Counted from the stretch's first letter, positions 8,204 to 58,869 are shown. The stretch is DNA of 64,000 bases from Bilabrum cf. latius (GCA_965178125.1 OZ237769.1:372001-436000); one strand, 5' to 3'. Numbers and translations: made by a program. Notes: generated by a model from the letters alone, not told the origin.

Positions 8204-11200
8204 ATGAGCTTGAGTTCCCGGGGGGGACTCAACAACTTTGACGCCTCCGTGATTCAATCATCAGAGCCGCAAACTGCAACCGCTCACGAGCATCTGCTGA
8301 TGTTAGATGGCGAAGAAACTAGTGGCAGTATCGAGGAGAAAGCACGTCAGATATACTCATTATCAAGTCCGAATTGTCCTGATGCGTCTGCTGACGTTGG
8401 AGAGACGATGCCGGATGGCGTTCTATAGTTGAATTCCTACGCAAGCAATTCAACTGGTCGAGAGGCTGGAGGTACCGGTGACACCCAGGTTCTCAAGATG
8501 CATTGTCTAGGCCCACATATGATACCTACCTATGGATTGCACCAGCAGTGGCAAGAAGCAATTTGCCGCGGCGTTCGGAGCGCATCAGCAAGCGAAACTC
8601 AAACTGCAAGCGGGCAGAAAATGAAGTTCCGAGAGTAGCGCTTTGGCCAAAAGGGCGCCAAGGATAAATCTCTTCTCGCAAAATTCCCCATTGGCGCAGA
8701 GGAGCCGCGGTTAGGGGATTTGATGCAAGCGAGCTCTCCTTCTCGCTCCATGGCGTCCATCAGTCGAGTGCTCGCCGGTCTCGCTGCGATGCGGGACGCT
8801 ACGACCAGCGAGCATGCCGATTAGGACTCAAATATTCGTTCGATGCAATTCAATGTGCCGTTTGGAGCGGCGTGGCCGGATGTTGCCGGACCCTCCGGTG
8901 GTGCCCTCACGTCACGGGATCCAGCGGACGTCGCCTGGAGCATCGAGCTGGACCGGGTCAGGTGAGAGAATTATTGCGGCAGTGAACGAGCCGTATCACC
9001 TCTGTTGAAGCAGTGCCATCGTCTTCCACTGGGGCTTGCCGTTCATGCCGTGGCATGTTATGGTACGTGTGCCGTGGCATGTACCGGCGCACAGGCGTAC
9101 CCCCAGGTGTGCATAATGGACAGGGAAAGAGGATACGTCACAAACGCATGCACCCCAATGTAGTATGCCCCGTATCTACAGTTCCATGCAATGCGCTGCA
9201 CTGCAATGCACGTCACACCTTTCACGCCTCGTCACACCATCCCCTCGCAGGTCGCTTGCCAGTCGGGAGGCAGGATTGGAAGCCGCCACTGATGCACTCG
9301 TCACACTCACTGCGGCTCTTCTGGGGGCACCGGCGGGTAAACGTGCCTCTCCTGCCGCACTTGCCGCCGCGACGATCATACCAATGCATAGACCGGGGCG
9401 GAGCGGACGCCATGCCTATGGGGCGAAGGGCATGCAGGACGCCGATGGTGCCTAGCAGGACCCAGCGAGGGTCTCCGGGTAGCGCATGGCCGGTGAATTG
9501 CTCGGCCTCTGCCTCAGCCTTATCTCCGCCTGTAGGGCCAATCATTCGTCACACGACAAGCACTCGTCACATCCCGCATCGCTCGCCAGACTAGCCGCCT
9601 GCGCCCTGCTGCTATGCAGCTCAAGCCGAGCCTCTGGCGAGGTGCGTGACGAGTGCATCGCGATGCTGCTGTGGCTGGGGAATCGCGTGCAGGATCAACA
9701 GCAACGCTCGCAGCAGGACGATTCCGAAGAGGATGGACGCAAGGGACTCAGGCTCAAGCCACGGACGGAGCACCTGCTCGTGAGAACTCCTTTTTATAGA
9801 AGGGCGGCTGGACTGCTCGATGATGATGACGATAAGGGCAATGCAGGGAGCCATGCAGGCAATTCATCGCATTGCAGCGTGCTGGATGTGCTGTTTGCTT
9901 GGAGCACGGCGACAGCGATTGACGCATGGCGGGACGGCTTTGGAGCTGAGGCAGAGCGCGGCACTGCACCCGCCGCTCTCGTTGACTCCGTGAGCGAAGC
10001 AGAGACTGGTGGGTACGGTTGGGGCACAAGCGGATCGTCGGTGGGTGTGAAGATGAAGATACCCCTGACGCACCGGCTGCAGCTCACCGCTGGACAGATC
10101 CTCGCTGGCTCGGAAATTGCTGGTATGTCCAGCTTGCAGCGGATTCGGCGGGTAGACGTTAGTGACAGTGGCAGCGGTACAGGACATTCGCCCCACTCCT
10201 TGGAGATTTCACCCCCTGGTGTACGCCATAGAGATGCAGGCGACTCTGCTGGGCTCAATCCATTCGTGTCAAGGCCACCTGCACTCCCGGCATCCAACGT
10301 CCTCTCTAGGCCGAGCATTCCTGCCGGCCAGCCAAGCTCCGGTAGCCCTTCACGCGGAAGTAGCCTGCGTGCTGAAGAGGATGGATCGGGGGATTCCCGA
10401 TCCGGGCAAGCAGCAAAAGCGGCGGAGATGTCGTCAGCTGGGCCAAGTAGTTCCGGTGCCCGCGGTGGTGCGAGCGAAATTCAACGCAGGGGAGTTGCCT
10501 GGGATTCTGCCCTCGTGCGAACGGTTGTGCCCAGCGCGGAGGCAGGCAGACCTCTGCAATGGCACGACGGAGCCACGCCACCGTGCGATGCACCCACCTC
10601 CGGAAAGACTACTTCTAGCAGTTGCAGCAGGGATGGAAAGCACCAAGCTGCGCAAGACTCGCTGGTGCTGTGCACGGCAGCCGATGGCATGATCCGGCTG
10701 ATCGGGCGCTTGCAGTCTGTTGCAGCAGGGGCAGGGGAGCTGTCGTGTCTGCACGCCGCACGCCTGCCAGTACCGCAATGCTCCGGTCATGGGTCGGAAG
10801 CTGAGCAGCAGAGCGTGCAGATCCAGCGAGTCTCGTGTGCTTCTGTCGGTCACGACGCAGTCTTTGTCGTTGCTTCCGGAGCAAAACTGCCTGCAGCATC
10901 TTCAGGCAGGAGCCTCGAGCCACGCGAGCCACGCGCTAGCCAGCCAGACCAGGGCACGCTTGACCCCTCGGAGACAAGCAAGATCACGCAGTGGTGGTCC
11001 ATGAGCGTGTGGCGGGTCGCTGGTGACACATCCACCGCCGCTAGCCTGGAGCTGGTGGCGAGCTACGAGGCCACGGTTAGCAGAATCGGCGGGTCGGGAC
11101 AGATCGACCTGGTGCCCAAAGAAAATAGCACTAAAGCCGCCCACAATTAGGCTGAGGAAGCGACCGGGTCTGGCGCTGGTGCCCCCGTTGTTTCGAAGGA

Positions 11201-14200
11201 AACACGCGTGCTTCAGCTGGCGCTGCTGGCTGTGTTCAGGACATCGTGCCAGGAGTGGAGAAAGGCTGCCGCGTCTGCCGGATCGATGCCTATTGCACCT
11301 GTTGCGGTGTCGCAGGACACTTGGGGCACACAGGTGCAGCGCACTGCGTTGCGAGGAGCCCTCCTGTTGTCGGCTCCTACGCTGGTTGCCTTTGTCGGCA
11401 CCCTTAGCGCAAGTTGTGGCGGATCGCCTGTGGGAGACGGTACGGAGCCAGGCGGAATCCTGGTGTAGGCTACTGTACCAACTGCTGAGGAGGCTGCAGC
11501 CGGTGCCGTGAGATGCCACGCGTTCGGCGTGGGCAGCATGCGCCGATTAGGCGTAGCAGCTGCAGGCAATTCGTCCATTGCGACAAGCACTCGCGGCAGA
11601 CGCAGTGCTAAATCTAGTTCAAGCCGTGCCACCGTGCACAGCGTGGCTGGCCCTGGGGAGGTGTCGGCTAAGAGAGAGGTGTTCGTGCGGCTGCACTAGG
11701 TGATGCCCCCGGTACCCTTCGCCGTGCCTGGCAGGCTCCGCGGTCTACGGCTCAGGGTGCGATCCGCGACCGACGTGACTCTTTCCGTCTCAGTCATGGA
11801 GCCTTGCGACGAAATGCACTCGTCACATGGCGCCGGCGGCAAGCCGTCCACCAGACTACGCAGACGAGCGGGAGCTCTTTGCACGCAGACGTGCGTGGCC
11901 AGCGCCGACCCGACCGGACGATTTCTCCAGACGGTCCCCCTGCGCGAGGTGAGCGTCCGACCGGGGGACGTGCTTCGAGTGACGGTGCAGCGGCCGGAGA
12001 AAGGCGCCTCTGCTTCACCTGCTGCTGGCTCTGGAGGGCCTCCTGCTCTGCCCTGTGCTGAGTTTGCAGTTGCATCGATCGATGCGTTGCAGTAGGCCTG
12101 CGGCTTCGTTCAGCCGCGGACAGGCGGAGCTTCAGCCGACAACAACAGCGGCCTTGACAGCAGGGAACAAGGGAGCGGCGGAAACTCGGCGGGTCGCGAC
12201 CACCGCGTTACACTGGTGGCCAACCTAGAACCCCCTTCGCTCGGATACTTCCAGGGCGTGCGCCCACCGCCCGCCGATGCTACTGGGGTCCATGACAGCC
12301 CGGGCTCGAGTTCTACGGCATCAGGCGCCGGTGCCAACTCAGGAGGCATCTTTGCGAGTGATGCAAGCGCCGGGAATGTGATTCCGCACCACCTTATGTT
12401 CCGTGTGGCTGAGCACGGTACGACTGCGGGACCCACGTCGAGCGCCTTCCCTTCTCCCATGATCAGCAGCAGCGGAGCAACGAGTGACGTGGATGAGGGG
12501 CGGTCTGTCTCCGCCGCTGCTGAGGTGGTGCCGGTTCTTAGCTCGTTCGGCACGTCTGACGAATCGACTGATATTGGCGAGGAATCCGCTGCGTAGCGAG
12601 AGTCGGCATCGGGTAGTGTTACCAACTTGCAGCACGTGTCTATTATTTACAGGGCCAACAGGCCGGTACCAGACGTTCAGGTCGTGCTAGGTGCACCTGC
12701 TCCGTCGACGGATGGTGCCAATGGAGGACAAGGGGCGTGCTTCATGTACGACGGCAGCTCCGGCGCTCTGTCCTCTGTCCGGCCGTGGCTGGGCTAGTCC
12801 ACCAGTGGATTGGGCCATACTGCGGTGACCGATTAGGGGGTGTCGTTGGCATGGGCGGTTGAGGTGACGTGCCAGCGGGCTGGATCTGATGGAAGCAGTG
12901 AGATTTCTGAGTAGCAGGGGCATGACCAACTTAGCGTGCTATTGGGTTCGTGTCGGGCACAGGGAGGTGGGTATGGAGGCATAGTCAGCGCCGAAAACAC
13001 CTGGTCTTTGAGAGCAAGACTGGAGGCAAGCGAATCCCTTAGCGTCTTCTCTCCTAGCCTGCCAGTTGATTTTATTGCCAGCCCGGCCGATGCAAGTTGT
13101 GGTCACAGGCCGATCACAAGGAATTCGGCTGATGCGACAGCGAGTGCGCTTCGTCATTTGCGGCAGCAGCGCACGCTGACGAAGCGAGATGGCCATCGGT
13201 TGTTTGGATGGGATGGACCAGCCGCAGGGCGCAGCGAAACAGGCTCAGACTCGGATTCTGAATCAGATTCTGAGCCTGGGTCGGGTGCCGAAGCCGTCTC
13301 ATCACTTCGGTCTCCCAGGGCTACTGCAGATGGGCATCTCATTGCACCAGAAGTGTCTGTCCTCTAGGCGTGTAGCCGGCTGCTAGCACTGTCAGGACCT
13401 ATGAACTCGCGTGCGTCGGCGACCGATCATGTCAACTCTGCACCCGACCGGCAGGCGGAAGGGGCGGCGAGCCTCCCAGCAGGGGACATTCCGGAGAAAT
13501 CCATCTGGAGAGCCGCTGGGAATGAAGATGAAGACCGGTCTCAGCGCGGTGTCGACGCGATGCTGGCCGGGCAGGTTGCCGCTTGCAACGCCGCCGCGGT
13601 TGACGACTTCGTGGTTGCCCTGCAGCGGTGCTTTGAGCTGGTTGGGCGCATCGCCGCCCTGCGTGCATCCACGGTCCCGGGACAGCAAAATGCGTGGAGG
13701 ACCCACGTCCTGCAGCTGCAGTCTTTGCTCCGTTCGGTCGTGCCTCCTCTAGAGGGTTCGAGCGGTTGGGCGAGCCGGACGGTGCTTGCACCCAGCAAAC
13801 AAGCCATGGAAGCCATCGGCAGCATGCTTGTACCGGCAGCTGTCTCGAGCAGCAGTGCGCATCCACCGAAACCCCGGATTCATGCTGCGCTCGAGTTTCT
13901 TTTTGCAAGCGGCATGCAAAAAAGAGTCGCATCCCGTGTGCTAGCCACTGCGGGGATCCAGTCAGCCGCACCAGCAGCACGCAAGGGCGATCGGAAGGCA
14001 GCAGAACGTGCCCTAGTCGTGACCACCGTACGATCGTGCCTGCTGCCGCTGCTCACTAGCGTATCGATGGCTGCCGCAAGGTGCACTGTATTGCACGCCG
14101 GGGACAGGAGCGACGCCTGGGCGGCGTCTTGGCTGGGCCCTGCCGCTGACGCTGCCCTGAGGCAATGCCTGCCTGTGCTTGCCAGGGCGCCTGCAGACAG

Positions 14201-17200
14201 GGTTAGCATCGTGGCAGCGACTCTGAACTCCGAGAGCGGTGCCGCCGCTGCTGGTATGACGAGTGCACCGAGCAGCGGTGCAGGGAGTGTGACGAGTGCA
14301 CCGAGCAGCGGTGCAGGGAGTGACTAGGCCGACAGGGGGCAAGCAGACTCGATGGTAGCGCGCAGCACAGAGGGCCAGGTGCTGGGCAGGCTGCTGATGA
14401 TGCAGCAGCAGCAGCAGCAGCAGCAGTAGCAGGAGGAGCCGAGCGGGGCTCTTGATGATGTTATTGGTGGAGAAGACGGTCGAGGCGGCGCAGGTGTTCC
14501 TTCAGCTGCTCCTGTTCGGCTGAGGCTGGCGGAGATACTGCTAGGGCACTCGTCACGATCGACTGCTGCACCCGGGGCGACCTTGTTGGACACTCGCCAC
14601 ACCATCCCATTTGTGTCGGCCGCTGGTTTGCTCCGCAATGCTGTCTTTAGCGCTGTGCAGGAGTTGGCAGTGCTGTTCCAGGCTCCATCTCTGGCTGCTC
14701 GGGGTGGTGGCGCTCTCTCAGTCCACGGTAGCGGATTGCCGCATTCGGCTGCTTTGACTCGAAGAGGGCGACGCATGTCTGCCGGTGTGCTGAGGTGTCT
14801 GATGGCCGGGCTAGCCGAGTCTGTGGCAGAGCATTCGAAGGGCGCGCGGGCGCAGCGGCTGAGGGAGCTCATTGGGTCCTCTCTCAGGCTGGTGCATGCC
14901 GTGACAGACGCTTGTAACTCAGCTGCTGAATCAGGATTTGCAGTGGCACTAGGGCAGGGAACCGAATAGAAAGGTGGGGATCAATCTGGTGCTACTTCGA
15001 GTGCATCATCGCACGCCGGTGGTAAGTCCTCTGAGAGCAAAGACTAGGACGTGGATGCAGATCAAAACGGAGGACGTGACTCATCCGCCGCTGCAGCTGC
15101 AGCCGGCAGTGATGTATCAGAGAGCACCGGTATGCTGCACGACATCAGCAACTCTGCTGCCTTGGTGGTGCTAAAGGAGACAATCCTGCCATTCTTTGGG
15201 TGCCGGGAAGGCATGTAGCTGCTGGCGTCTTCGCCCGTCTCTCTAGACGATGTCTTGCGGAATGGCTCAAACCGGGCCGGCTCACCCGACGCGACGAATG
15301 CATCTGGCTAGCAGCAGGGAGAAGAAGCCGCGGGTGCCTCATCACAGCATGGAGAAGACGACGACTAGGCGGGCAGGCTGCTGGACGAGCTCTTGGATGG
15401 GAAATTCGCGCACGTGGGCGGCAGTGCCACGGGCCCGAGCCGCTCAGCGCATGCTAGTAGCAGCGCGCAGGTGCACGCAGGCGGGGTAGCGGTTGCCAAG
15501 CATTTCATCCGGGCGGTGCTAGAGATGCACAGCGCCCATCAGAGGTGCTGGGCTGCAGTTGCACCCACTCTTGTGGGGCAATCAGCTGAGGAGCCCACCG
15601 CACCTATGGATGGAGCTGCATCTGCTGGCAAGGCAGATGCATCAACTGCTCTGGTTGTCCGTAGCAGATCGCGCATCGAATCAGTTGGTGTGGGCAATTT
15701 TGGCGTGCTGGATTTCGCCAGGCTGCTCGTGCAAGGCAGCTCACCGTTTCGGGTGCTGCCAGCTGGGCAATGCAAAGTGGACGGAATGCACACAGCTTTG
15801 GCCACACAGTTGAACCAGTCTCTGCTAGCAGCAAAGCCGCATGTATCTGTTGAGATCGTGGACGAACAGCTGCAAGTCGCCGCCAAGGAAGCAGCCACAG
15901 GCAGCACCGTCATTGAGATTCCCGACGGGGGCGCAGTACCGTAGCCCTCGACTGTCCTTGGCGCAGCCTTGCAGAGGCACTCCCCCGGCGATCTTGCAGG
16001 CCTGGTGAAGTATGAGCGGGTGAAAGCCATTCGACAAGGAGCCAAGCGCGGCGTGTCTCCACCAGCGCAGAAAAAGGAACCGCCGGCGTGCGTTGACGTG
16101 GCGTCCAGGACCTACACCCTGCGGTGGACGGTTTCTCAGTCGGCCGCCGAGGCCATCGCGCTCCGATTCTCGAAGCAGTGCGGTGTTCCCGGGAGAGCAG
16201 TGTGGGTCTCTATCCAAAGGTGTGTCGACGACAAAGACGAAGCCAGTGGCAGCTCACGCGGTGTCAAAGCCGCTGCACAGCTGGGAGGTACCGCGAAACC
16301 TACCAAATCGGGCAACGTTGGGGTGGCGGTGTAGAGTGGCAGCGACGAGGATGTGGTCGATTGGCTGATGAGCGGCCAAGGCGCTCGTGCTGGCGCACCC
16401 TTGGACGCAATGGTGGCAAGCGGGGGCGTGGGTATCCCCGTTGCAAGCGATGGCACTGGCCTTGCGTCCCCTGGTGAGTTTCCCCCTTCTGTAGGACTTG
16501 GATCCACAGCTTCATCATCCATCGGATTCGGTAGCACACAGGGCTCCATACCCACCACTGGCCCGAGGCCTGTTGGGGAACAAGAAGGTGTGACGAGTGG
16601 TGCCTAGCGGTAGGCAGCGCGCGAAGCGATCGATTCGCCTACCATGCCCCTCCAAGCAGCAGGCTCCCATCAGGGTTCGCAAGAGGCAGACAATCGCGTG
16701 TCTCGAGATGCTGGGGCTCCTCCGCATACGCCAATCGTGCCAAGCATGATGAACGTTCGCCCGGCCAGCGACCCCCGCTACCGCACGCCGCCGGACCAGG
16801 TCATCAACACACCCGCTGGACGAGCCACATAGCTACGCACCGCGGCTGCGTCCACAGGCAGACCCGCTTCCGCCCGAGGAAGCAGGACTGGAGCTGGAGC
16901 TCCGTTGGGCAACGTTGAGGGAGGAACTGAGGGCGCCGAGGGTATAACGGCGCAGGCGCCCGCGAGTAGCAGCGGTGAATCTGCCACTACTGCAGGCGGT
17001 GCTGAGGTGGTGCACGAGCCGGGAGCAGAGGCGGAAGAGGCAGGCAGCGCTGACTCGGTGGCAGCGGAGTTTATCAGCCTGCCGTCGTCAGTGATGGATG
17101 AGTAGATTGGAGCGGCAGCCGGAGAGACGGGCGCCTAGGCGGCGTCTTCATCTTCACGACCGTCATCTTCAATTGCAGAATCCGGTGCGTCCAGGGCTGC

Positions 17201-20200
17201 CGCAGAGTAGCACGAGCAGCGGTGGCGGGACATATTGACCATGGCCACCGGCCCCAACAGCGAGGTCACCATCATTTAGGTGGACGCCAGCGATGACCCC
17301 GGGAGGGCCGATGGTGACCCGCAACTCAACTCCGATGACGTGGTTGAATCAGCGAGGCAAGCCGCCCGAGCAGCCCTCACCCGCATGCGGGCTCGTATTC
17401 GGGACCAGAACGGATCTGGGGCGCAGGTGGGTGAGGGATCCGAGCCAGAAATGCGCACCACCGCGGTTGCAACCGGTGGTGGCAGTGCACGACCCGCAAC
17501 TGGTGGACAAGCGACGAACCAGGCCATGGGGGGTGCTAGGGGTCTTGCCTCACCAGTCAGCGTGCGGGATCAGCTGCGCACCGGCCAGCACTCCCGGTTT
17601 AGAACGGCCATCAACCGGCTCAGGACGCGCGGTGGAGAGCTAGCTGGGGTCATCCGGCAGCCCGGGCGGTTTCAGCGCGACATCGCTCGGCAGCTTCTCG
17701 ATGCGCTCCGGATCGAGATCATGAACGCACAGGAAAGGCTGTTCGCGCGGTACCTGGGCAGGAGGATCGGCCAGAGGACCGGATCGTCTGATGCCGCTTC
17801 CGGTTCCGGTTCCGGTTCCGGTTCCGGTTCCGGTTCCGCTTCTGCCTCTGCCTCCACGACGGCAACAGCACAATCTGCGAGTGATGGAGGCGACGACGAA
17901 GAAGAAGACCCCTTGGCGCAGATGGCAGCGGTGCTGGGTGTGGGTGACTCGTCAGGGACAGGCAGAGGATCAGGCCACTCGGGGACCGCGCGGGGTGGTC
18001 GGAGGAGCAGCGCCGGCACCGGGCTAGCAACAGAGGACCGCGACGTCGGTGGAGCAGCAATGCCGAGTGGAAATACCTCGGGCGGCAGCACCACTGCTGC
18101 AAGCAGCGGCGCCCAGGGTGCCTCCAGTCGGGGTGTTGCCGCGGCGCCGCCTGGTTCCGCACCGAGACCGCCCCCGCCGCGGGGTTCAAACCCACGGAGG
18201 GCTATCCCTCCCCCGCCTCCGCTCGGGGCGCCGCGCAGCGGAACCAGGTAGGTGCAGCCATTTGGGGAGGTCGTTCCCTCGGACGTCCTGCAGGTGGCTC
18301 AGCTTGAGGCTCGCAAGCGCGTGTCAGGAAGCTCTGCAGCAGTGCAAGCCATCGGGCTCGCTGCCGCTGACTAGGCCTGGATCAGCCCGTGGTTGCGCAT
18401 GACGCAGGGCATCGACGGACTGCAGCAGACATAGCTGGACTGGGGCGTGTGGCCGGAAGAGCCCGTGGTGGTGGAATCGGGCAAGCTGCAAATCGTACTG
18501 GGTGGTATCGAGGATGTTGCAATGGCCCGGCAAGCTGTGCTCGGAGCTGCCAAGGCCGCGAGGGAACCGGCGATTGCGTACAACGGTATGGTGGTGGATA
18601 CCGTATCGCGGTACGAGCTGCTGCCGGCACCCACTGCTAGCAAGCCCAACCGTAGCCAAAGCATCGTCAGCTCAGATGAGACCCAAGCCATGTCAGTTAG
18701 CGCGCTCGGCCTGTCGTTGGCATTCGCCAGTGCCATGGATACACTGTGCTCGGATGATTCGAATGGTACCGGTGCTATCGCTGATATCGAATCAAGTGGC
18801 TTGAGCGAAAAGGCAACTGCTGCAGCCGGCTCTGGTGCCGGTGCACCCAGCGCTCATTCAAGCAGCGCGGCGGACGAGCAGGAGCTGGAGCAATGGAAGC
18901 GCAGGCTTCGGGATGCCAGACACCAGCAGCTGCACCAAAGGCGCAAGCGACGGGCACTGGTGGCGTCGCTGCGGAAGCGTCTGACCCGGAGTCGCGCTAC
19001 ACGCAGCACTGCAATGCACCCTGTGGGTGTCGGAGGCAAAGCACCCGCTGAATAGGCAGCAAAGAACGGCAACATGAACGCGGAATCTGTAGCAGTGTAG
19101 GAAACAAAAGCGCTGTCGGCATCATCTTCACACAGGTTGCCGTCCACCAAGCCACCGAGAATGCCAGGGGGTGCAGCTTCACAAGCCGGGCTTGTCTCGA
19201 AATTGATGCCAGGTACAGCCCCAGCCAACACAAGAGCGCAGCCGACCCACGGCGAATGGTCCTCTGGCGACGAAGCATCACGCCGACCCGATACCACTCG
19301 TCACACATTGCCAGCAGCTGCCATGCCTTCTCCCCTGTTTCAGGGGCTGTCAGCCAGTGCCGGAGGTTCGCTAGGAAGCACTTTGGGCACGCGAAGCCCG
19401 GGTGTTGCAAGCGGTAAGAGCCCACCGGTCCTCGGGGGCTTCGCGCCGGGCCAGCGTCGCACCATCCCACCCAGCCCACTGGGACAAGCCAGCGGATCTG
19501 CAGAAGACCTGGCCGACCTTTCGCTGCCCTCGTCTGCCATGGGGGGCGAAGTGGGCGGAGGTGATGGAGGTGAGGAGGACGAGGACGACGGTTCCGCAGC
19601 TGGAAGTGGGCACACTCGGGGTTCCTCTGCTGTGGCGCAAGGAGGCCCAGCTGTCATGCGCAGGTCGGCTTCGGAAGGCACTGCATCCCAGCGAGCCGTG
19701 AAGTCATCGATCCGATCTGTCTCCAGCGCCTCTGAATCTGACGCAAGGGGCGGAGGCACCACTTCTGCTGGATCCGACAGCGGTGCTGGTGACACGGACA
19801 ATGCATCTGGGGACGAGGGCAGGAGCCTGGCACCTGGATCCAGGCAGCTCGGGGCACAACCCACGCCCATGCTGACTCCTTTTTCACCGCTGTAGGCGGC
19901 AAGCGGAATCGTTCCCGCGCTTCCGACCGGCGACGATTTCTTACTGGATGGGGGTTCCGCATCTCAGGGATCTGGCGGTGCATCGTCGCTCAACACGGCA
20001 GGGTCAGGCGGGGCCGCCTCCTCTCGCGGGGCCGTTGGATTCTCCGTGTCAAACAGTGCAGGGAACAGTGCCGCTCTCGCAGGGGAAAACCTTTCGGTCT
20101 CTCAGTTCCTTGGATCTGCTTCCCAGACTGGCAGCCGTGAGTCGAACAACGGAGACGGCGAGCAGGAGCAGAAGCAGGGGTCTCCTGTGCCGCACTCACC

Positions 20201-35137: not shown

Positions 35138-35195
<58 letters not shown>

Positions 35196-44100: not shown

Positions 44101-46610
44101 GTGCCGGTGCCGGTGACGACATCATCGAAGGCCTTAGTCTGAGGCAGGGGGGCCGGCGACCAGAGAGGCCCGGCGCCTCCAATGCAGGGGGTGTGCGTGA
44201 GGCGCCCAACACAGAGGACGTGTCGGTGCGGGACGATTTCGTCGACGATGGCGACGTGTCAGACGGGGATGCGACTGGGCGGGATCAGGGTGACGAGCAC
44301 GAGTCTGGCTTCATGGACCGGATGCTTCGGTACAGGCAGCAGCTAGGTGGCAGCGGGTTTCCCGCGATGCTGCACATGCAGGGCGATGGCGGCGGCATGA
44401 TGGATTTCTCCATGGCGTTAGAGTATGCGAGAGCGGCGGGCGCTGGGTCCAGGAACGCCAGGCTAACAGCGTCCCAGCTCACGCAGCACCTAGCCACAAT
44501 CGTCCCCGGTCTTCGGGCACCTGCAACCCGCGACTCTGCTAGGCGAAGGCACGCAGGTGCTTCTGCGGGGTCTCCTGCGGGGGTCCTGGGCCGGGGCCGC
44601 GGGAGGGGACAGACGGCGACGCAGCAGATGCAGACGCACGGCAGTCAGACGGGGGAGCCGACGTCGTCCACAGATCGACTCGGAATCGAAGTGAGGGTGG
44701 GCCGGGGCGCTGCAGGTGGGAACAGTCTCAGCTCCCGACGTGCTCGGCCGGCTGCCAGCGGGCAGCAGCAGCTGGATCTTGGGGGTGGCTAGAGCGGCGG
44801 CGCCAGGTGGGCGCGACCGCGAGGCGGTTCGCCAGCTTCCCCTGGGGTTCGCCGAAGCTTCGGTCCCCTCCGCACCTCTCAGGGGACGAGGGCCTCACCC
44901 GCTAGTGCCGGTGCCGGGCCAATCAACACGGGCGCGGCGGGCGGCGCAAGGACAGGCGTGGGCTATTCCAGGGCAGGCCGCCAGGCCCTGGCCAATCCCC
45001 TGCGGCTATCTCGGGCGGGCAGCCACCGGGACCCTCAGGGAACAAGGGAGGAGCGGCTCGCAGCTTGGTAGCGATCTGCGAGCGCCAGCGGAACCTCCCG
45101 CGGACTCGACGGCGCGGCGCCGGATGCCGCTGGAGGTACTCGCCGCCGACCATTCGGCTATTACGAGGACCAGCTGGAGGGCATGCAACAGGAAAGAGAC
45201 AGCGGTAATCCAGCCGGCCAATCCTCTCTAGAGTCGCAGTGGCAGGTGGTGGGCAGGCGACTCTTGTCAAGCGAGGAGGGTGCCTCAGCCGGGTTCGATC
45301 CCGGGAGGGGCAGGGGTGCCGCTGCGGGCGCGTACGGCTACGGTCCAGGATCCCCGGGTTCGAGCCCCGCTGCGGCTGCTTCCCGTCGGCGAGGCAGAGG
45401 CGGGGGCATCGGCAGAGGCGGCCTCTCCTCGTCGTAGGCCATGAGGCCGCCGCGGTACGGGGATGGTTCCGCAGGACGCGCGGCGCCAGGCGACGGCGCA
45501 TGGCATCGGACCGTGGGAGACCCCCAGGTCTTTCGGGGCCACCGATCCGGAATCGATTCGGAATCGACCGGAGTGGAGTCAGACAGGTCGTTGGTGGCAG
45601 AGCGCAGGCGAGGTCGGCTCTCGGAGATGCTGCAGCTCATGGGACACACTGCGGATTTCGGGACAGACCTGGAGGCCAGCGATGAAGATGAAGAGGAAGA
45701 GGAGAATAGGGGAGGGGAGGACGGCGCCGATTCGATCGGACGAGAGCTGTACAGGCAAGGGGAGATAGAACGCATGGAGTTTGACGCTGATGTGGAGCAC
45801 CACATTCTGCCTGACATGGAGGTGGGCAGCGGAGACGAAGAGGAAGATGAAAATGAAGATGGAGGAGAGGACGGTATTGGCGGCGGCGGAGCATCGGACG
45901 ACGAGGACAATGAAGATTTTGGAAGCGGGGGAGCACCCCTGCCTGATTTCGGCGCTGGCGCTGGCGCACGTGCAGGTGCAGGTGCAGTCGGCCGCGGGCG
46001 GCGGCACGCGGATGAGCATGGTGGTCAAAGTGGCCACAGCCTCGGTTTTTCGTACCACCGGCACGAGGACGAAGACGAAGATGAAGACGGGGATGGATCG
46101 GACGGGTTCGTCGGCGTTGACGACTTGTTTGAAGATGAAGATCACGAGGATGGTGGCCTTGCTCTCCAGGAGGGCTCCATGGGCAGGGGTGGGGTCGGAG
46201 CCCCGGCCCTGGGGCTGGGACAGGCGTTCGGGGAGGAGGACGATGAGGAAGAGGAAGAGGAAGAGGATGGGCACTGGGAGGTGGTAGAGCCGCTGGGGTC
46301 CAATGGCCGCGTGCCGCGCGGGGGGGGTGCGTTTGATGGCGAGGGTGATGACGTGGGTGGTGGCGTAATGGAGTTGCAGCAAGGCAGCGACGAGGAGGAG
46401 GGGGAGGGGGATGGGCTAGGGGACGAGCGCGACGATTAGGGTGAGGGAGCAGATGGTGGTAATGGAGCGCTCGCTTTCGGCTTCGAGCCGCCGCCCGGCG
46501 CCGGGGCAGACCACGCTCCCGATGAGTAGGAGCAATTTGATGATGCCGGAGATAATAGCCTCGGCGGATCAGGCTCTGATGTGGAAGAATACCAAGAATG
46601 GTCCGATTGA
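8204..46610 (+). CDS. Giant HERC-like HECT E3 ubiquitin ligase, ~12,705 aa, join(8204..8961,9251..46610)
   Basis: All plus-strand ORFs of one frame from 9165 to 46439 end in TAG. I read the gaps between them and found no in-frame TAA/TGA before the TGA at 46608-46610 (about 70 TAG in total). The upstream exon is open from ATG 8204 (alternative ATGs 8723, 8750) to a phase-2 intron. HECT motifs: WQIVFSGEGGIDAGGLFSE, LELIGVLMGVGVR, FWKALAG, LELLPGG, ELRALICG, WFFDVL, VLRFIWARDRLP, LPSAHTCTFQLDLPTYSS. Confidence 0.85.
8962..9250 (+). other. GT-AG intron (phase 2) of the giant HECT gene
   Basis: ag|GTGAGA ... cccctcgcag|g restores AGG (Arg) and links the exon-1 frame to the 37-kb frame. Confidence 0.75.
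14257..14322 (+). repeat. 33-bp in-frame tandem duplication (TSAPSSGAGS x2)
   Basis: tgacgagtgcaccgagcagcggtgcagggagtg occurs twice in tandem. Confidence 0.9.
14403..14432 (+). repeat. Poly-Gln tract (CAG)8-TAG-CAG
   Basis: Read directly, in frame with the giant CDS. Confidence 0.95.
17799..17837 (+). repeat. (TCCGGT)n hexamer microsatellite encoding SGSGSG
   Basis: Read directly. Confidence 0.9.
21860..22350 (+). other. Helical region resembling the conserved non-RCC1 scaffold segment of HERC1/HERC2-type ligases
   Basis: AERAAAAAILRHAGL...PPAAILQVFKSARRLRSWMRLVKQQ...VQARAALLLEVTP...SVVAFV...LDTAKL...ARAQV parallels, by eye, the HERC2-type 'LLKH...P..V..V......ERLRFL....P...IAEF...VD.EK......RAE.R' pattern. 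Confidence 0.5.
23484..24120 (+). other. DOC/APC10-like domain within the giant HECT protein
   Basis: SSWQ...MTLTIP...VTSIDV...PKEVQV...VLQVRLGVLRNHHGGNSSQLRAVRVL resembles the APC10 C-terminal 'lqi.i..NhqnG.dt.vr.i.v' motif. Three TAG codons (23619, 23670, 23766) lie inside it. Confidence 0.5.
30819..31220 (+). other. Tandem Royal-family (MBT/Tudor-knot/chromo-barrel-like) domains
   Basis: WRDQLRPGSRVDCFDSHSKWYEGVI...VRVRFLGWS...YDEWLSRTSQRLLPPGT, then a second WRRVQVGDEIEVRD unit. Confidence 0.65.
33480..34260 (+). other. Concanavalin-A/LamG-like jelly-roll domain with a Tudor domain (33711-33860) inserted
   Basis: LamG motifs ITFSTWI, LHPGRWTHVALV...LELWVDG, LRNTQLYMRPLNRDEI; Tudor LPAGTLVEGRYGQVTWYPGRVDNYNDDGTYDILYEDGD. 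Confidence 0.65.
35139..35195 (+). repeat. (CAGGGA)9 microsatellite encoding QG repeats
   Basis: Read directly. Confidence 0.9.
41300..43176 (+). other. HECT catalytic domain; catalytic Cys codon at 43095-43097
   Basis: LPSAHTC motif, with N- and C-lobe motifs in canonical order. Confidence 0.9.
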
Positions 46611-48004: not shown

Positions 48005-51000
48005 TCGCTTCGTACTTGACGTTCACCCGACGGCTCCTGGCGCCGGATGATCCGAGGAGCAGCCCAGAGGCGGCCCTGGAAACAGCCAGGGCAATGTATT
48101 ACAGATCAATTGGAGTTACCGAGGAAGTTGTCGCAAGCAGCGAATCGGGCGAGCAGAGCAGCAAGAGCGGCTCCTCTAGCGGCAGCTCGAAAGGAGCACC
48201 CAGCTCCGGTGCTGCTAGCAAATCAAGGTCCAAACCGAGCGGAAAGACTGGCAAGTCCCAAGGAGCATCCTCCCAGCCATCCAAAGAGGAGGCCCCGGCC
48301 GGGGTGCCGCTCCGCTGGTCGGCCTCCTTGCCGTCCCGAGAAGACGAACGTTCGCTCGAGTTCCTTCAGCAGTGCGAGCTGGATCCGACGGTGGCGCAGC
48401 TGCTCCTGGGCAGCCGCCTCGGCGTGGGCTACGACGAGGACGCCATGCGTCTGGTTGCAACCGCTTCCACGTCGGGGCCACGCACTCGATCCGGAGCCGG
48501 TGGCACCGGGACGGGCGCAGGGACGGATTCAGGCAGCCGGCGGTCGGGGCGCGGGGGCAGCGGCAGCGCGGCCGTGGCGGGCTCCTCGTCGCTGGCGGCA
48601 CTGAGCCGGTCCTCTTCGAATGGTTCCGCACATGGCGGCGCCTCGAATGGTTCCGCCAGCGCGGCGCCGAACGAAACGGACGAGGAGTACGCCAGGATAG
48701 GCGTGCTTTTAGGCTCCGAATCTGTCCGGAATCAAAAGGCAATGGCGGGGCCCGACGTTCGCGGCGGGCTGGGGGAGCTTGATCGTTCCGATTCCGAGTC
48801 GGCGGCCTCCTCCTCCTCCTCCTCCTCGTCTTCGTCTTCGTCCAAGCCAAAGCCAATGTCGGAGCAAGCCAAGTGAGTCGTTGGTTGGCCGGCCGGCCGA
48901 TCGTCCGAGTTTCCTCCATTTTATGGATCAAGCAGCAGCATGTGTTCAGCTGTACCGGATTCCACTGAAGTTTGTGCAAGCCCCCCCCCCCCGCCCCCCC
49001 CCCCTCCATTCATTCTAGTGTGCTGCGTATTGGCCCGTGTTGCTCCCATGAATCCGCAGGCAAAGACGCTGGAGATCGTGGTGCGGCGAAGTGGACGACG
49101 TGCTGGAATCCAGGCAGCTGCCCAGCTGGAGGCGGCTGCTGGCCCTCCACATGACGGCGAGGAACCTGCCGCCGCTGCAGGCATACTCGGCCGGAGGGGG
49201 CGGGGGTGGACTGTTCCAGATGGTCCAGGGAACAAAGTCGAAGCTTAGGGAGAGGCTCATGGCCGTCGTCAAGTGGCGGGCAAGGTTGCGTGACGCGCTT
49301 GGGTCGGTACCGTACGACGCAACTGTGCAGGAGCTGGAATCGATCGCGTCGGCCGGGGCGTCGCTTCGCACGTCCCTGCCCGAAGCCAAGGCCAGCCGTG
49401 CGATCGCCAAGGCAGCCAGGAGGTGGCAGCGCAGAGCGGCCAAAGCACTCGCGCAGTGCGAAGCAGCCGCACGAGCCATGACTGTGAAAGACGCAGCACT
49501 GGCCGAGAGACAGGCCATGCGGGACATTGAGACCAGGGAGCTTAGAGCAGAGCTGGAAGAGGCGGGACAGGTTGGGGCGGTGGGTGCCGGGGATCTTGAG
49601 GTGCAGCTCACGCACGACGATGCGGGGCTCGCGGCCGACGGCGAGTCTTCGACACAGGCAGGATCGGGCAGCGCCGCCGCCGTAGGATCCAAGAGAGGCA
49701 GAGGCTGGGAAGAGGACAGTAAGGCGTCCAAAGGCGACGGCCAGGGAGATACATAGCCGCTGTTAGCCCCTGGATTTGCAGCAGCGGGCAGGAGCAGGCG
49801 CAAGCGCCGACGGACATCCCGCCGACGAATCGCAGACGAGGATGAAGACGATTAGGACGAGAGCGGGTCTGCCGATGGCAGCGCATCGGGGAGCAAGAAA
49901 AAGAAGGCGAAGCCTAAAGCCAAAGCAAAGCGCCCTGCCAGCAGGACAGGGAACGGGGGCGCTCAGGCTATGCAGGACGACGGCGATGGAGGCGAGGATG
50001 GGGAGGATGACGACGAGGACGAGGACGATGTGGCGGATCCCGAGGCACCAGCGCCCCGCATCTCGGTGGGCATGCTTCGGCGCATCCTGCAGGAAGGGGA
50101 ACACTTGCCAGTGGCCTTTCCGGAGCGGGCGCGGCTAAAGGAGCGCGTCGAGTTCGTGGATCGTTTGTCGAAGAGGATCAAGGAGCACCTGCCCAACCTG
50201 CCGGGTCACCCCAGAGGCGTGTCTGGGAACCGGCTGCCCTAGTCCTTCATGCTATCTTCGCAGGCTCTGGTGCAGCGCACTGCAGCGGTACCCGGCCTGC
50301 CTGCTGACTCCGTTGTGCTCGCAGACATCGCAAACGGGAGCTCGTTTGCCTCCTCCGGATCCAGTGGGGCCGCGTCAGCCCCTGCATCTAGCGGCGCGGG
50401 ACAGGTGCCGCTGGGGGGGGATGGCTCGGAGCATCATGTCGGTTTAACTAGTGCAGTCAAAACTGATGGGGGCAAGGACGACCCATCCGTCCGTCCCCAG
50501 ACGCTGCACGTCAGCTATCTCGACCCGCTGCAAGGGGGCACGCTGGGCGCCAGCATCGGTAGCACCACGTCGAGCGGGCTGGTTCCCGGGTACCGCAGGG
50601 CGCGATTTCCGCTGGCGCACGTGCAGGCCCTGGCACTGGATGCAGCGCACTGTGGCGTAGGTTTTGCCGAGGCAGAAGTAGCCTCTCAGGTGTGCGAGGC
50701 CGCTCTGGTGTGGAAGAAACGGGCGGAGCAGCTTCTTCACGGGGCCGAGCGGCCCACTGCACGTCTGTTGCGGGACCACGCAGACGCGGCGGAGTACCTG
50801 CCCGTCGATCTCTCGCCCGAAGTGGCTGCGCTGCGGCGGGCGGTCGCCAGGGCAGATGCCTGGAGGGGAGCTGCAAGGGCAACTCTCAAGGTAGCAATGC
50901 TGAGGACGCAGAGCGCCGTAAGTGGCGCGTCTTCGTCTGCGGCAGCTGCCGCAGAGGACACTGGCGGGGCTTCCGGGGCCACGGATGCCGGCGGGCGGTC

Positions 51001-54000
51001 GTCTCGTCGCGCTGCCGCTTCGAATGCGAAGAGCGCGCTGTTGGCAAGGCAGATCCAGAACGGGGATGGCGGCGTGGGCAACGATGGCGGGTCCGGGGGC
51101 GGCGGATCATCCGGGTCTGGTTCCTCTGGCCTCATGCGGCGAGGGATCGGTGGTCTGTCTCAGGACACGGTGTCCACGGGGCAATTTGACGGTGCGATTG
51201 CGCTCACGACTGTGGAGGAGCTGCTCAGGGCAGGACGGGGGAAGTCTCTCCCGAACGTGGCGGGGGCGAGAGAGTGGAAGGAGTTGGAGGGCGCTGCCAA
51301 GACTGCCAATGATTGGGTGCGGCAGGTGCGGAAGGCGCTCGAAGACGCCACAGCGGCAGAAGCAGCAGCTGCGGAGGATCAAGCAGAGAGACTGGGTGTC
51401 AAATCATCTGGACATGGTGCGTCAAGTGCATCTACTGCATCTGGTGCACTAGCAAGCAGCAGCAGCAGCAGCAGCAGCAGCAAGATGGTGGATGACGCCG
51501 AGGATGAGGCTGGGGTGATCGGCACGAGCGACGACGAGTCCCTCCGATCCGGTCCCAGGGCCGCACTCGTCACAGCACTAGAGGAGCTGGACGAGCTCGA
51601 GGAAAGCGGCGATGCCCTCCACGTGCACGTGCCGGAGCATGCACTCCTTAAGATGGAACTCAGGGCGCGCAGGCTGGGGCTCAGGGCACGGGATGCCATT
51701 CGGGGCAAGCGAAGGAGAAGGCTAAGCGAGCTCACCCGCATCATAGGAGAGTTTGAGCAGGCCCGTGCCGAGGGCGTGTACACTCTGCCGAGCAGTAAAG
51801 CTGCCATGGCGGCCAAGGCGCTCGGCGGGACCAGGATTCAGTACTCGCCTCCCCGCGCAGCCATCGAGGGCGAGATTCGACAGGCGGTCGCCGCTGCAAC
51901 CGCCTGGTCCCAGAGGACAATCAGGCTGCTGCAGCGGAGGTGTGGCATCGACAGGCTCAGGACGGCGATCAGTGACGCGCAGAGTATTCCCGTCGATATG
52001 TCCGTTGAGCAGGGGCCCCTGGAGGAGGCCATCGCGGGCTGTGCCGCGTGGGAGACTGCAGCCGCACCCGTGATCGACGCGTTGAAAGCAGCTGCGGCGG
52101 CGCACTCATCACACAAGCAGCAGGACCTGGAAGAAGGGGTCGCCCCATCGGAAGGCCAGTCGGAGGATTTGCCACTCTCCTCTTCAACCTCTCGAGATGA
52201 TGCACCCCGCGTGCCACTTGCCCGCCTCCGCAGCCTCGTTCGCTCTGCAGAGGCGCTGCAGGCTTCCCCTGCCGGAGTGGAGCTGGTGCAAGCCGCTTGT
52301 CTCGAGGCGGAGCGTTGGCTGCGGCGGGCGGTTGCCGCACTGCCTGAGCACGAAGTGGCCCGCATGCTGATGGAGGACGACCCCAGCCAAGGCGCTGATG
52401 CACACCTGAGCGCGGATGCTGCGGCTGGAGGCAGCGGGGCGAAAGACAGAGCCATGGCAGCTGCCTCGATGCAGAAGGGGTTGCACGACCTGGCGGGCAG
52501 CAGCAGCGCAGCTGAGAGTGCAAACAGCGACGGCGATGATGATGATGATGACGATGCTGATGATGACGATGATGAAGATGTTGTGTCTGCGCGCGGCTCC
52601 CCGCCCACGCTGCCGGACGACCCGCCAGAGTTCGGCCGGTCCGCGTCCCGCGGGTCACGCCGCTCGCGGGCCTCCGCCTCCAGCAGCAAGCGTGCCAAGT
52701 CCAGAGGTAAGAGTGCGGCAAGCGGCCCAGGCTAGGCAGCCAGCCGGTCATCCAAGGCGTCGCGCGGCGGCAGGCGAGGCGGCAAGTCCCTCGCCTGCGC
52801 CGCTGCATCGTCATCGTCGTCCTCACAGGGTCGCAAGCCTGTAGCGAGCCAGGATCCAGTCTCGTTGGATGAGTTGGAGCAGCTGCAGCAGGACGCTGCT
52901 GGGCTGGCAGGAGACATCCGTGCTCCGCTGCGGAGGATCGAAGGGTTGATACGTACCGCAAGCGCATGGCAGCGGGAGGCCAATAGTCTGCTCGAAGCCT
53001 GGTTTGGAACCGCAGCAGACGAGCCGATGCACCCGGGAAAGGTGGCGGAAATACATGCGGCGCGCAGCGCTGCTGTTGCTGCCGCATGCGCCGCCGTGAA
53101 GTCCGGCCGATCCGGTGAGCGAGCAATGGCAGCTGCCAGCGGGGCTGCTGGCCGGATCCTTGGCGTGGGCCGTGGGCCTGCCGCAAGGGATCAGGCAAGA
53201 GCAGCATGCAGATTCGTCGTGACGAGCGTGGCGCTGCTTCGTGTGGCGGGCAGGATCGGCGTGTCCATCGAGGAAGAGGCCACGCTGGAGCAGGCACTGT
53301 CCGTTGTCAGATGGTAGGCAAAGGCTCGCGGCGTGCTGTCGCTCCTCGGTGCAATCCGCAAGCGAAGGGAGGAGTTCGCTCCTGCGGCCGTCCGCATTCT
53401 ATCTGAGCCAGAGGACAAGCCACGTGTCGGTGGTAGAGCCGGCGCAAAGTGGCGCCGGCCGGCACTTGTCGATCTGTCATCCTGGATGGACGATGCGGCT
53501 GGAGCCAGGGAGCGCGTGAGAATGAGGCGGGCAGTTCGCAGGGCCGTGGTAAGAGCTGTGGTGGGTGCCGATGGGGTGGGTAGCGAGGGTGACGAGGAAG
53601 AGGTGCAGTCCAAGATAGAAAGAGCGCTTGCTGCCTTTGGCATCGACCTGTCATCCGATCAGGCGGAGGAGGATGCGACCGCAGATATGCGCGATGGTGA
53701 TGACGACGACGAGGATGAGGACGAGGACGAAGGTGATGCCGAAACGCACGGTGAGGATGAGGACGACGGAGGCAAGCAGTCCTCTTCGTCTGGATTGCGA
53801 AGGGCCCACTCGGCCTCTTCCGCTGCGACGCAGGACACTGCAGCCTCGCACAGGCCCAAACGGCACCGAGCCAGCGGGCAGGGCTCCATGGGCGATGAGT
53901 CTGGCGGGGACAGTGACGTGGTAGAGGAAGGGGTGGAAACTGTAGGTGCCGCTGAACGGAGGGGCAGAGGACGGGGAAGGGGTAGGGGTAAGGGCAGGGG

Positions 54001-58820: not shown

Positions 58821-58869
<49 letters not shown>

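What the first reader, a model, noticed from the sequence alone, without database searches (positions are those of the whole stretch)
9295..51573. Strongly over-represented DNA motif CACTCGTCAC(A) embedded in coding sequence on both strands and in all frames
Seen: at least 19 exact copies of CACTCGTCAC or GTGACGAGTG. Forward at 9295, 9561, 11817, 14547, 19295, 21074, 23674, 32582, 37636, 43953, 51564; reverse at 9646, 14289, 16590, 23397, 30141, 35454, 35736, 36213. 17 of the 19 extend to the 11-mer CACTCGTCACA. One-mismatch copies occur at e.g. 9543, 14256, 24078, 26486, 36231, 39138, 54375, and a partial copy lies in the intron at 9228. The rough chance expectation for a 10-mer here is about 0.1-0.15 copies. 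The motif is translated in different phases (ALVT, HSSH, TRH, VTS), so it is not a peptide repeat. 18 of the 19 lie in the giant gene. Inference: a DNA-level signal under selection or generated by a sequence-directed process, such as a protein-binding or chromatin site, a methylation target (central CpG), or a HIP1/Chi/uptake-sequence-like element in a eukaryote.
Basis: partly seen in the sequence, partly recalled or inferred. Interest (0 to 1): 0.8.

Follow-up and report, generated by a model that had tools for sequence, protein, structure and literature searches.

The report
Hyper-abundant 12-letter DNA word in protist genes
A GC-rich single-celled eukaryote that reads the stop codon TAG as an amino acid carries one 11-12-letter DNA word far more often than chance inside its genes, on both strands and in every reading frame, much like the recognition words of some bacteria, and what reads it is unknown.

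Summary
CACTCGTCAC occurs 19 times at the stated coordinates (chance 0.10), and 17 copies extend to CACTCGTCACA. No null explains this: a synonymous-codon shuffle of the giant ORF gives 0.30 copies against 18 observed. Flanks are unrelated. Contigs from four studies carry the laid stretch unchanged.

The word acts at the DNA level. Of 23 places in the giant ORF whose peptide could be spelled with it, 18 are (expected 0.30). The encoded peptides (HSSH, ALVT, TRH, VTS, DEC) are about 4.5 times over-represented as a result.

The word is not private to the giant gene. Eight metagenome contigs with the same TAG-as-sense signature, covering unrelated genes, hold 27 exact copies in 33.5 kb. Eight of their copy clusters are additional to the one that selected each contig (chance 0.06). 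A relative with 81-89% protein identity keeps the word-encoded peptide at 2 of 3 exact-copy sites covered.

My best reading is a lineage-wide maintained word read by an unidentified DNA-binding factor. A non-functional conversion or insertion drive is not excluded. This scan noted comparable words in giant viruses and spirochaetes, but not this word and not in a cellular eukaryote.

The parts
9117..46610 (+). Giant open frame of 12,497 codons ending in TGA, with 66 in-frame TAG and no TAA. It is a HECT-type ubiquitin ligase and hosts 18 of the 19 exact copies.
   Evidence: Pfam HECT E=1.6e-44
49052..61690 (+). Second open frame of 4,212 codons ending in TGA, with 19 in-frame TAG and PLU-1 and PHD domains. 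It hosts 1 exact copy.
9295..9305 (+). exact 11-mer, read as ALVT
9561..9571 (+). exact 11-mer, read as HSSH; a one-mismatch copy (CAtTCGTCACA, synonymous change) starts 18 bp upstream at 9543
9646..9655 (-). exact 10-mer (11th base G), read as DEC
11817..11827 (+). exact 11-mer, HSSH
14255..14298 (-). exact 11-mer at 14288-14298 (VTSA) plus a one-mismatch copy at 14255-14265, both inside a perfect 33-bp x2 tandem duplication (14257-14322)
14547..14556 (+). exact 10-mer (11th base G), HSSR; a one-mismatch copy starts at 14591 (synonymous change)
16589..16599 (-). exact 11-mer, VTSG
19295..19305 (+). exact 11-mer, TTRH; the relative has IARH here with no indel
21074..21084 (+). exact 11-mer, TRH
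23396..23406 (-). exact 11-mer, VTSA
23674..23684 (+). exact 11-mer, ALVT; a one-mismatch copy starts at 24078
30140..30150 (-). exact 11-mer, VTSA; a one-mismatch copy starts at 29568
32582..32592 (+). exact 11-mer, TRH; a one-mismatch copy starts at 33578 (-)
35453..35463 (-). exact 11-mer, VTSE; a one-mismatch copy starts at 35225 (-)
35735..35745 (-). exact 11-mer, VTSA
36212..36240 (-). exact 11-mer at 36212-36222 (GVTSD, kept in the relative) plus a one-mismatch copy 18 bp away at 36230-36240 (GMTSG; GVASG in the relative)
37636..37646 (+). exact 11-mer, ALVT, kept in the relative
43953..43963 (+). exact 11-mer, HSSH, downstream of the HECT domain
51564..51574 (+). exact 11-mer in the second gene, ALVT; a one-mismatch copy starts at 52103 (synonymous change)
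2649..2659 (+). one-mismatch copy (CACTCaTCACA), the only copy with at most one mismatch upstream of the giant ORF

Best explanation
[G]CACTCGTCACA[C/T] is a lineage-specific DNA word kept at high copy number in the nuclear, mostly coding DNA of a GC-rich, apparently intron-poor protist lineage that reads TAG as a sense codon. It is maintained as DNA, not as protein. It sits on either strand and in any frame that avoids a stop, it overrides normal codon choice, and it imposes its own short peptides on tolerant, largely disordered protein regions. Inferred: an unidentified sequence-specific DNA-binding or DNA-processing factor reads it, for example a chromatin, recombination/repair or replication factor. 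Copies would arise by point change at near-matches and by small local duplications, then persist through selection. Shown: the excess, its DNA-level nature, its presence in unrelated genes of related organisms, and its persistence at orthologous sites.
For: Excess over every null. 18 of 23 peptide-compatible sites in the giant ORF are spelled with the word against 0.30 expected from codon usage. The five peptide classes occur 25 times against 5.6 expected from composition, and the surplus equals the word copies. Flanks are unrelated and information drops to background outside positions 0-12. Both orientations and 5 of the 5 stop-free phases are used. Eight contigs from two metagenomes have TAG-open long ORFs, among them an SMC protein of 1,722 codons with 14 TAG and an alpha/beta hydrolase. 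They hold 27 exact 10-mers in 33,460 bp; all 27 extend to the 11-mer and 24 to CACTCGTCACAC. Eight clusters lie beyond the one that selected each contig, against 0.06 by chance, and all are inside ORFs. A relative at 81-89% protein identity keeps the word peptide at 2 of 3 exact-copy sites covered, differs by what can be one base at the third, and shows no indel at any. The class sizes fall off: 17 exact, 12 one-mismatch and about 5 two-mismatch above chance in the window; 27, 4 and about 0 in the relatives' contigs. By my own reasoning, neutral birth and decay at equilibrium should give roughly equal classes. 10 of 12 one-mismatch copies differ by a transition, as expected for decay from the exact word.
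Against: No reader protein, binding data or modification data exist. No DNA of an orthologous relative could be obtained, so conservation at silent positions was not measured. At least three decayed copies differ only synonymously (9543, 14591, 52103), so any constraint is not absolute. With only 3 exact-copy sites compared, persistence is also compatible with neutral survival since a recent split. Density is uneven in the window: 13 of 15 clusters lie in the giant ORF, P = 0.02. Even spacing is not significant (P about 0.16). The eight relatives' contigs were selected for a doublet of the word, so their density is biased upward; only the extra clusters count. No whole genome is held, so 'genome-wide' rests on 64 kb plus 33 kb.
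Confidence: 0.5

Rival explanations
1. The word has no function and is the by-product of a sequence-directed mutational process, that is, molecular drive. Either a biased repair or gene-conversion system favours the word over near-matches, or one 12-bp unit is repeatedly inserted from a template; a 12-bp unit keeps any reading frame.
For: The unit with its preferred last base is 12 bp: 24 of 27 copies in relatives and 11 of 19 in the window end in C. That would explain tolerance in all phases. The word-encoded peptides are extra to the background number of such peptides, as insertion predicts. Local doublets and short arrays with periods of 15-41 bp occur. Synonymous decay occurs. Bacterial uptake sequences are commonly explained by drive (recalled knowledge, not from a call).
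Against: No 4-residue indel is seen at any of the 4 word sites aligned with the relative, 3 exact and 1 decayed. The base before the word is also biased (G in 19 of 35), so unit borders are not sharp. No template or enzyme is known. The insertion test against distant homologues failed because they do not cover a word site.
Confidence: 0.3
2. The copies are scars or ends of a mobile element, such as excision footprints, solo terminal repeats, or remnants of a transposon-derived intron family later removed.
For: The sequence is short and constant, lies in both orientations, and occurs 4 times as pairs 258-282 bp apart. Two of those pairs are in inverted (-,+) arrangement like terminal repeats.
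Against: The sequence between the paired copies shows no similarity, with no conserved block other than the word. There are no target-site duplications or shared flanks. The pair spacing is not seen in the relatives' contigs. The P of 0.0003 for that spacing is post hoc.
Confidence: 0.08
3. The word acts in RNA, for example as a binding site for an RNA-binding protein or small RNA on the very long transcript.
For: 18 copies lie in one putative 37-kb transcript.
Against: 8 of 19 copies in the window are antisense to the coding strand, and both orientations occur relative to the ORFs of relatives. No RNA family matches the window.
Confidence: 0.04
4. The excess is an artefact or a trivial repeat: adapter or assembly error, a peptide repeat, or low-complexity sequence.
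For: The protein is rich in low-complexity sequence. In unrelated metagenome contigs the 9-mer CACTCGTCA does occur as plain tandem or satellite repeats.
Against: Contigs from four studies are identical across the copies. The frame stays open through all copies. Five different peptide readings are used. Flanks are unrelated. The relative's proteins carry the same peptides.
Confidence: 0.02

Closest known systems
DNA uptake sequences of naturally competent bacteria (USS of Pasteurellaceae, DUS of Neisseriaceae)
   Same: A non-palindromic word of about 10-12 bp, 100-fold or more over chance. It lies on both strands and inside genes in any frame, it shapes the encoded peptides, exact copies outnumber one-off copies, and related lineages share it.
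   Different: The host is a eukaryote with nuclear-type genes (HECT, PLU-1/PHD, SMC). No transformation system or uptake receptor is known or testable here. Density in the window is uneven. DUS/USS properties are recalled, not taken from a call.
Chi sites (crossover hotspot instigator) and similar polar guide words (KOPS)
   Same: A short asymmetric word spread through coding DNA at a spacing of a few kb.
   Different: Those words are oriented with replication and read by RecBCD or FtsK. Here orientation is mixed (11 + to 8 -) with no visible polarity over 42 kb, and those enzymes are bacterial. Chi and KOPS properties are recalled.
HIP1 of cyanobacteria
   Same: A hyper-abundant word inside genes, with a central CG.
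   Different: HIP1 is a palindrome linked to a methyltransferase (recalled). This word is not a palindrome.
Dispersed binding sites of eukaryotic architectural or general regulatory factors (CTCF, Su(Hw), Reb1/Abf1, extra-TFIIIC B-boxes)
   Same: A 10-20 bp asymmetric site, either orientation, many copies per genome, sometimes in homotypic clusters.
   Different: Those sites are degenerate and mostly non-coding. Here copies are letter-perfect and embedded in ORFs. By my own comparison from memory, none of those consensus sequences matches.
'Hidden DNA words' noted by this scan in giant viruses and spirochaetes (e1-5544381, e1-5545875, e1-5465418, e1-1396036)
   Same: Clade-specific words inside genes, on both strands and independent of frame. 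One note describes gene-selective density.
   Different: They are different words in different hosts (viruses, bacteria). They are AI notes that I did not check.

Membership tests
Uptake-sequence-like genomic word (USS/DUS type) | Strong over-representation of one short non-palindromic word on both strands | tested here: met
   19 against 0.10 expected; 11 on + and 8 on -; other nulls
Uptake-sequence-like genomic word (USS/DUS type) | Occurs inside genes in any frame and is kept at the DNA level | tested here: met
   5 of 5 stop-free phases are used; 18 of 23 compatible sites are realised against 0.30 expected
Uptake-sequence-like genomic word (USS/DUS type) | Spread over the whole genome and shared by related species | tested here: inconclusive
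   Found in 8 unrelated contigs of TAG-sense relatives, with 8 extra clusters against 0.06 by chance, and at 2 of 3 orthologous sites in a relative. No whole genome is held, and density in the window is uneven.
Uptake-sequence-like genomic word (USS/DUS type) | Host is naturally transformable and has a receptor that binds the word | not testable with these tools
   The host is a eukaryote. No such system is known in eukaryotes (recalled).
HIP1-type palindromic word | The word is its own reverse complement | tested here: not met
   CACTCGTCACA against TGTGACGAGTG (direct reading)
Chi/KOPS-type polar word | Orientation bias along the replichore | tested here: inconclusive
   Orientations are mixed with no run structure over 42 kb. 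Replication direction is unknown.
Mobile element (MITE, terminal repeat, excision footprint) | Shared sequence beyond the core, terminal inverted repeats enclosing a related body, target-site duplications | tested here: not met
   Flanks are at background composition. The four bodies of about 270 bp are unrelated.
Peptide or tandem repeat | One reading frame and one peptide; head-to-tail copies | tested here: not met
   Five peptide readings. Only one true tandem duplication, 33 bp x2.
Interstitial telomere-type repeat | Head-to-tail copies at the unit length | tested here: not met
   Close pairs are 18, 18, 33-34 and 44 bp apart in the window and 15-41 bp apart in relatives, never 11-12 bp
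Sequence-specific protein binding site | Demonstrated binding by a protein | not testable with these tools
   No binding data exist. Homotypic close pairs are compatible with it but do not prove it.

The most novel reading that the evidence does not exclude
This is the first self-recognition or guide word of the bacterial uptake-sequence/Chi kind found in a cellular eukaryote. A dedicated nuclear factor would read CACTCGTCACA(C) to tell own DNA from foreign DNA, or to steer recombination and repair. The word would be driven into every tolerant stretch of coding DNA in a lineage that has also changed its genetic code.
Probability: 0.15. Interest if true: 0.9.

Novelty: new variant of a known kind. 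Interest (0 to 1): 0.72.

Why it matters
Hyper-abundant, letter-perfect genomic words are known from bacteria, where they mark DNA for uptake or guide repair enzymes. I found no description of one in the nuclear coding DNA of a eukaryote. Full-text searches for the 10-mer and the 11-mer returned 91 and 31 papers; I saw only the listings (20 and 31 rows), and every listed title concerns an unrelated topic, so I take the hits to be primers or similar oligonucleotides. If a reader exists, it would be a new kind of genome-wide DNA signal in eukaryotes, strong enough to dictate amino acids in hundreds of proteins. It would also be easy to test, because the site is exact and short. The lineage itself matters because it reads TAG, but not TAA, as a sense codon, which is rare among nuclear codes.

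Tried and rejected
1. Whole-genome census: no genome is held for this window.
2. Mobile-element idea: alignment of the four pairs about 270 bp apart showed no shared body.
3. Even spacing: eight gaps of 1.8-2.9 kb look regular, but the coefficient-of-variation test gives P about 0.16. Four gaps of 258-282 bp give P = 0.0003, but that window was chosen after seeing the data and is not reproduced in relatives.
4. Orthologous DNA: a protein-seeded metagenome scan with a 937-aa piece found nothing. Protein searches found only 5 fragments: 3 from a relative at 81-89% identity and 2 at 98-99%.
5. Insertion test against distant homologues: 14 representatives matched residues 63-259 of the query, and the word site lies at about residue 305, so the test was uninformative.
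6. Viral contigs: the doublet pattern gave 9 loci, all plain tandem repeats and none TAG-open.
7. 110 of the 118 metagenome loci are unrelated tandem or satellite repeats of CACTCGTCA.
8. RNA: no tRNA gene, no Rfam family, and no RNA holder listed among sequencing runs.
The atlas on the second gene gave only a weak lead, score 0.83, with Haptophyta the commonest taxon.
10. Meaning of TAG: the relative has E, E, Q, Q and a gap at 5 TAG positions. The one TAG in the conserved SMC head falls on a variable position. The meaning is unresolved between Gln and Glu.
11. Literature searches for a TAG-only nuclear code in a GC-rich eukaryote and for frame-independent motifs in protists gave nothing matching; I saw listings only.
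12. Telomere-repeat and Pol III A/B-box resemblances were considered from memory and dropped.


Full report
**The observation.** The 10-mer CACTCGTCAC occurs 19 times in the window at exactly the coordinates given, 11 on the + strand and 8 on the - strand. A dinucleotide-preserving expectation is 0.10, and none of 100 shuffles comes near 19. Seventeen copies extend to CACTCGTCACA. It is the only enriched k-mer (k = 8-14) that is not a simple triplet or hexamer repeat. There are 12 one-mismatch 11-mers, against roughly 1 by my rough hand estimate of chance, and 10 of them differ by a transition. There are 20 two-mismatch 11-mers, close to my rough chance estimate of about 15. Markov models of order 1-5 predict 0.12-1.25 copies of the 10-mer. 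For the giant ORF, which holds 18 copies, the nulls are as follows:

| Null for the giant ORF | Expected copies |
|---|---|
| Synonymous-codon shuffle keeping the protein | 0.30 (max 3 in 1000) |
| Codon permutation | 0.07 |
| First-order codon chain keeping dicodon frequencies, including those contributed by the word | 0.69 (max 5 in 500) |

**Not an artefact.** Contigs assembled from four sequencing runs of four different studies were laid on 9200-29199. Run X3 covers all 11 copies in that stretch with no differing letter. Listed pieces of X5, X6 and X7 cover 7, 3 and 1 of them, also without a difference. The X3 study may be the assembly's own source; the other three are independent. The only breaks in contigs are at simple repeats, such as the 33-bp duplication near 14.3 kb.

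**Context.** All long frames in the window are interrupted only by TAG.
- With TAG read through, 9117..46610 is one frame of 12,497 codons with 66 TAG, no TAA and a final TGA.
- 49052..61690 is a frame of 4,212 codons with 19 TAG, no TAA and a final TGA.
- CAA makes up 26% of the CAA+CAG codons in the giant ORF, so if TAA were also a sense codon about 20 would be expected. TAG alone is reassigned.
- The giant protein carries a HECT ubiquitin-ligase domain (E = 1.6e-44). The second carries PLU-1 and PHD domains.
- This is therefore nuclear DNA of a GC-rich (59-67%) eukaryote in which no intron is needed to keep a 37-kb frame open.
- No whole genome is held for it, and I could not name the organism.

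**The word is a DNA feature, not a protein feature.**
- Flanks of the 19 copies share nothing. A position table shows background composition outside positions 0 to 12.
- The consensus is [G]CACTCGTCACA[C/T]. Over 35 independent copies from the window and relatives, the preceding base is G in 19, the 11th base is A in 33, and the 12th base is C in 25 and T in 8.
- In the giant ORF the word is read as HSS[H/R] (4), ALVT (3), TRH (3), VTS (7) and DEC (1). The gene-2 copy reads ALVT. The only unused phase is the reverse one that would contain TGA.
- Only 23 places in the giant ORF have a peptide that could be spelled with the 10-mer. Eighteen of them are, against 0.30 expected from the gene's own codon usage.
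- Those five peptide classes occur 25 times against 5.6 expected from amino-acid composition. The surplus equals the word copies. The DNA word dictates amino acids rather than riding on existing peptides.
- Of the five compatible but unrealised places, four are 1-2 letters from the word. Two of those four, 9543 and 14591, differ from it only synonymously; in the second gene 52103 does too. Copies therefore decay, and any constraint is not absolute.

**Not private to this gene.** I scanned the metagenome collection for two copies 5-35 bp apart.
- Most loci are unrelated tandem peptide or satellite repeats built on CACTCGTCA.
- Eight loci stand out. Seven come from one metagenome (L003, L011, L034, L044, L056, L060, L088) and one from another (L092). 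Five of the eight pass a strict screen for long ORFs that are open only if TAG is read through; the other three come from the same metagenome and show the same tendency.
- Examples are L034 with 1,722 codons and 14 TAG, an SMC protein (E = 5.8e-34), and L088 with 936 codons and 6 TAG, an alpha/beta hydrolase.
- These 33,460 bp share no homology with the window apart from a microsatellite.
- They hold 27 exact 10-mers. All 27 extend to the 11-mer and 24 to CACTCGTCACAC. Setting aside the one cluster per locus that the search selected, 8 further independent clusters remain, against 0.06 copies expected by chance.
- All copies lie inside TAG-open ORFs, in both orientations, and give the same peptides: GVTS, HSSH, TRH, SLVT, DEC.
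- The word is therefore a property of a lineage that also shares the TAG-sense code, and it occurs in unrelated genes. I cannot tell whether these contigs are a different species from the window's organism.

**Age of the copies.** Protein searches found three fragments of a relative with 81-89% identity to the giant protein (P0002, P0003, P0004) and two fragments at 98-99%. The three fragments at 81-89% identity cover three exact copies.
- GVTSD (36213) and ALVT (37636) are unchanged in the relative.
- TTRH (19295) is IARH, which can be a single base away from the word.
- The decayed copy at 36230 (GMTSG) is GVASG in the relative, a different single step from GVTSG.
- No indel lies at any of these sites, and no lineage-specific new site appears in about 1,900 aligned residues.

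The copies thus predate the split of these two lineages and turn over slowly. With so few sites, and without the relative's DNA, this does not separate purifying selection from neutral survival.

A second, modest argument for maintenance comes from class sizes. There are 17 exact, 12 one-off and about 5 two-off copies above chance in the window, and 27, 4 and about 0 in the relatives' contigs. By my own reasoning, neutral birth and decay at equilibrium should give classes of similar size.

**Distribution.**
- Eighteen of 19 exact copies lie in 58.6% of the window (P = 0.0006). Several are close pairs, however, and at the level of independent clusters the figure is 13 of 15 (P = 0.02).
- The giant ORF carries about one cluster per 2.9 kb, the rest of the window about one per 13 kb, and the relatives' contigs about one extra cluster per 4 kb.
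- The SMC ORF of L034 (5.2 kb, structured) has none, while short disordered proteins have several. This fits accumulation where the protein tolerates it, but the equally low-complexity second gene has only one.
- The run of 1.8-2.9-kb gaps is not significantly regular (P about 0.16).
- Four gaps of 258-282 bp are unexplained. The P of 0.0003 is post hoc and the pattern is not seen in relatives.
- Close pairs 18, 18, 33-34 and 44 bp apart and short arrays in relatives show that the word tends to be duplicated locally.

**Interpretation.** Shown: a letter-perfect word of 11-12 bp, independent of strand and frame, maintained in coding DNA across a lineage. I rank the explanations as follows.
- **Read site (0.5).** A sequence-specific DNA-binding or DNA-processing factor reads the word, and copies are kept by selection.
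- **Functionless drive (0.3).** Biased repair or conversion, or repeated in-frame insertion of a 12-bp unit, would give much the same static picture. It is favoured by the 12-bp length and by the 'extra' peptides, and disfavoured by the lack of indels at the 4 aligned word sites and by the biased base before the word.
- **Mobile-element scars (0.08).** No flanks or bodies are shared.
- **RNA element (0.04).** Both orientations are used.
- **Artefact or peptide repeat (0.02).** Contradicted.

**Comparison with known systems.** It works most like bacterial uptake sequences (USS/DUS), with Chi and HIP1 as looser parallels. It is not a member of any of these. The host is a eukaryote, the word is not a palindrome as HIP1 is, there is no polarity as in Chi, and no uptake or RecBCD machinery applies. 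Properties of those families are recalled, not taken from a call. Eukaryotic architectural-factor sites are degenerate and mostly non-coding.

Full-text searches for the 10-mer (91 papers, 20 listed) and the 11-mer (31 papers, all listed) showed only titles on unrelated topics, which I take to be primer or oligonucleotide hits; I read listings only. This scan's earlier notes describe comparable words in giant viruses and spirochaetes and TAG=Gln giant viruses with unknown hosts. Those notes are unchecked leads. None concerns this word or a cellular eukaryote.

**Verdict.** The mechanism is open between a read site and a drive. It is a new variant of a known kind of genomic word, in an unexpected host. 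Interest is 0.72.

Noticed in passing
window 9117-46610 and 49052-61690; also L003, L034, L044, L088, L092: TAG is a sense codon while TAA (0 in 16,709 codons) and TGA (ends both ORFs) are not. This TAG-only nuclear reassignment sits in a GC-rich eukaryote and is shared by metagenome contigs. At 5 TAG positions a relative has E, E, Q, Q and a gap, so the meaning (Gln or Glu) is open.
   Followed up: partly
window 42165-46610: The frame stays open for about 1,100 codons after the HECT domain, which usually ends a protein (recalled). The extension is acidic and Gly/Ala-rich low-complexity sequence.
   Followed up: no
window 14257-14322: A perfect 33-bp x2 tandem duplication contains the word; short-read contigs break here.
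   Followed up: partly
window 9295/9561, 14289/14547, 23397/23674, 35454/35736: Four pairs of exact copies lie 258-282 bp apart (two direct, two inverted) with unrelated sequence between them. Two doublets are spaced exactly 18 bp (9543/9561 and 36212/36230), and in each the 5' copy is the imperfect one. Unexplained, and possibly chance.
   Followed up: partly
window 3168-5111: A TAG-containing ORF of 647 codons looks like a P-loop NTPase by eye (Walker A- and B-like stretches) but has no Pfam match at E <= 0.01.
   Followed up: no
L001, L047, L062, L077, L079, L085 (metagenome contigs): Satellite-like arrays of CACTCGTCA alternating with CCGA (9- and 13-bp units) occur in contigs from a related set of samples. 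L077 and L079 also look TAG-open. The relation to the window's lineage is unclear.
   Followed up: partly
window 9200-29199: The identical sequence is present in sequencing runs filed under four different organism labels in four studies. The organism may therefore travel as an associate or contaminant of other samples; I did not pursue this.
   Followed up: no
L034 682-5847 (-): An SMC-family protein of 1,722 codons with 14 in-frame TAG has no copy of the word in its own ORF. The doublet that brought the contig in lies in the neighbouring ORF.
   Followed up: partly
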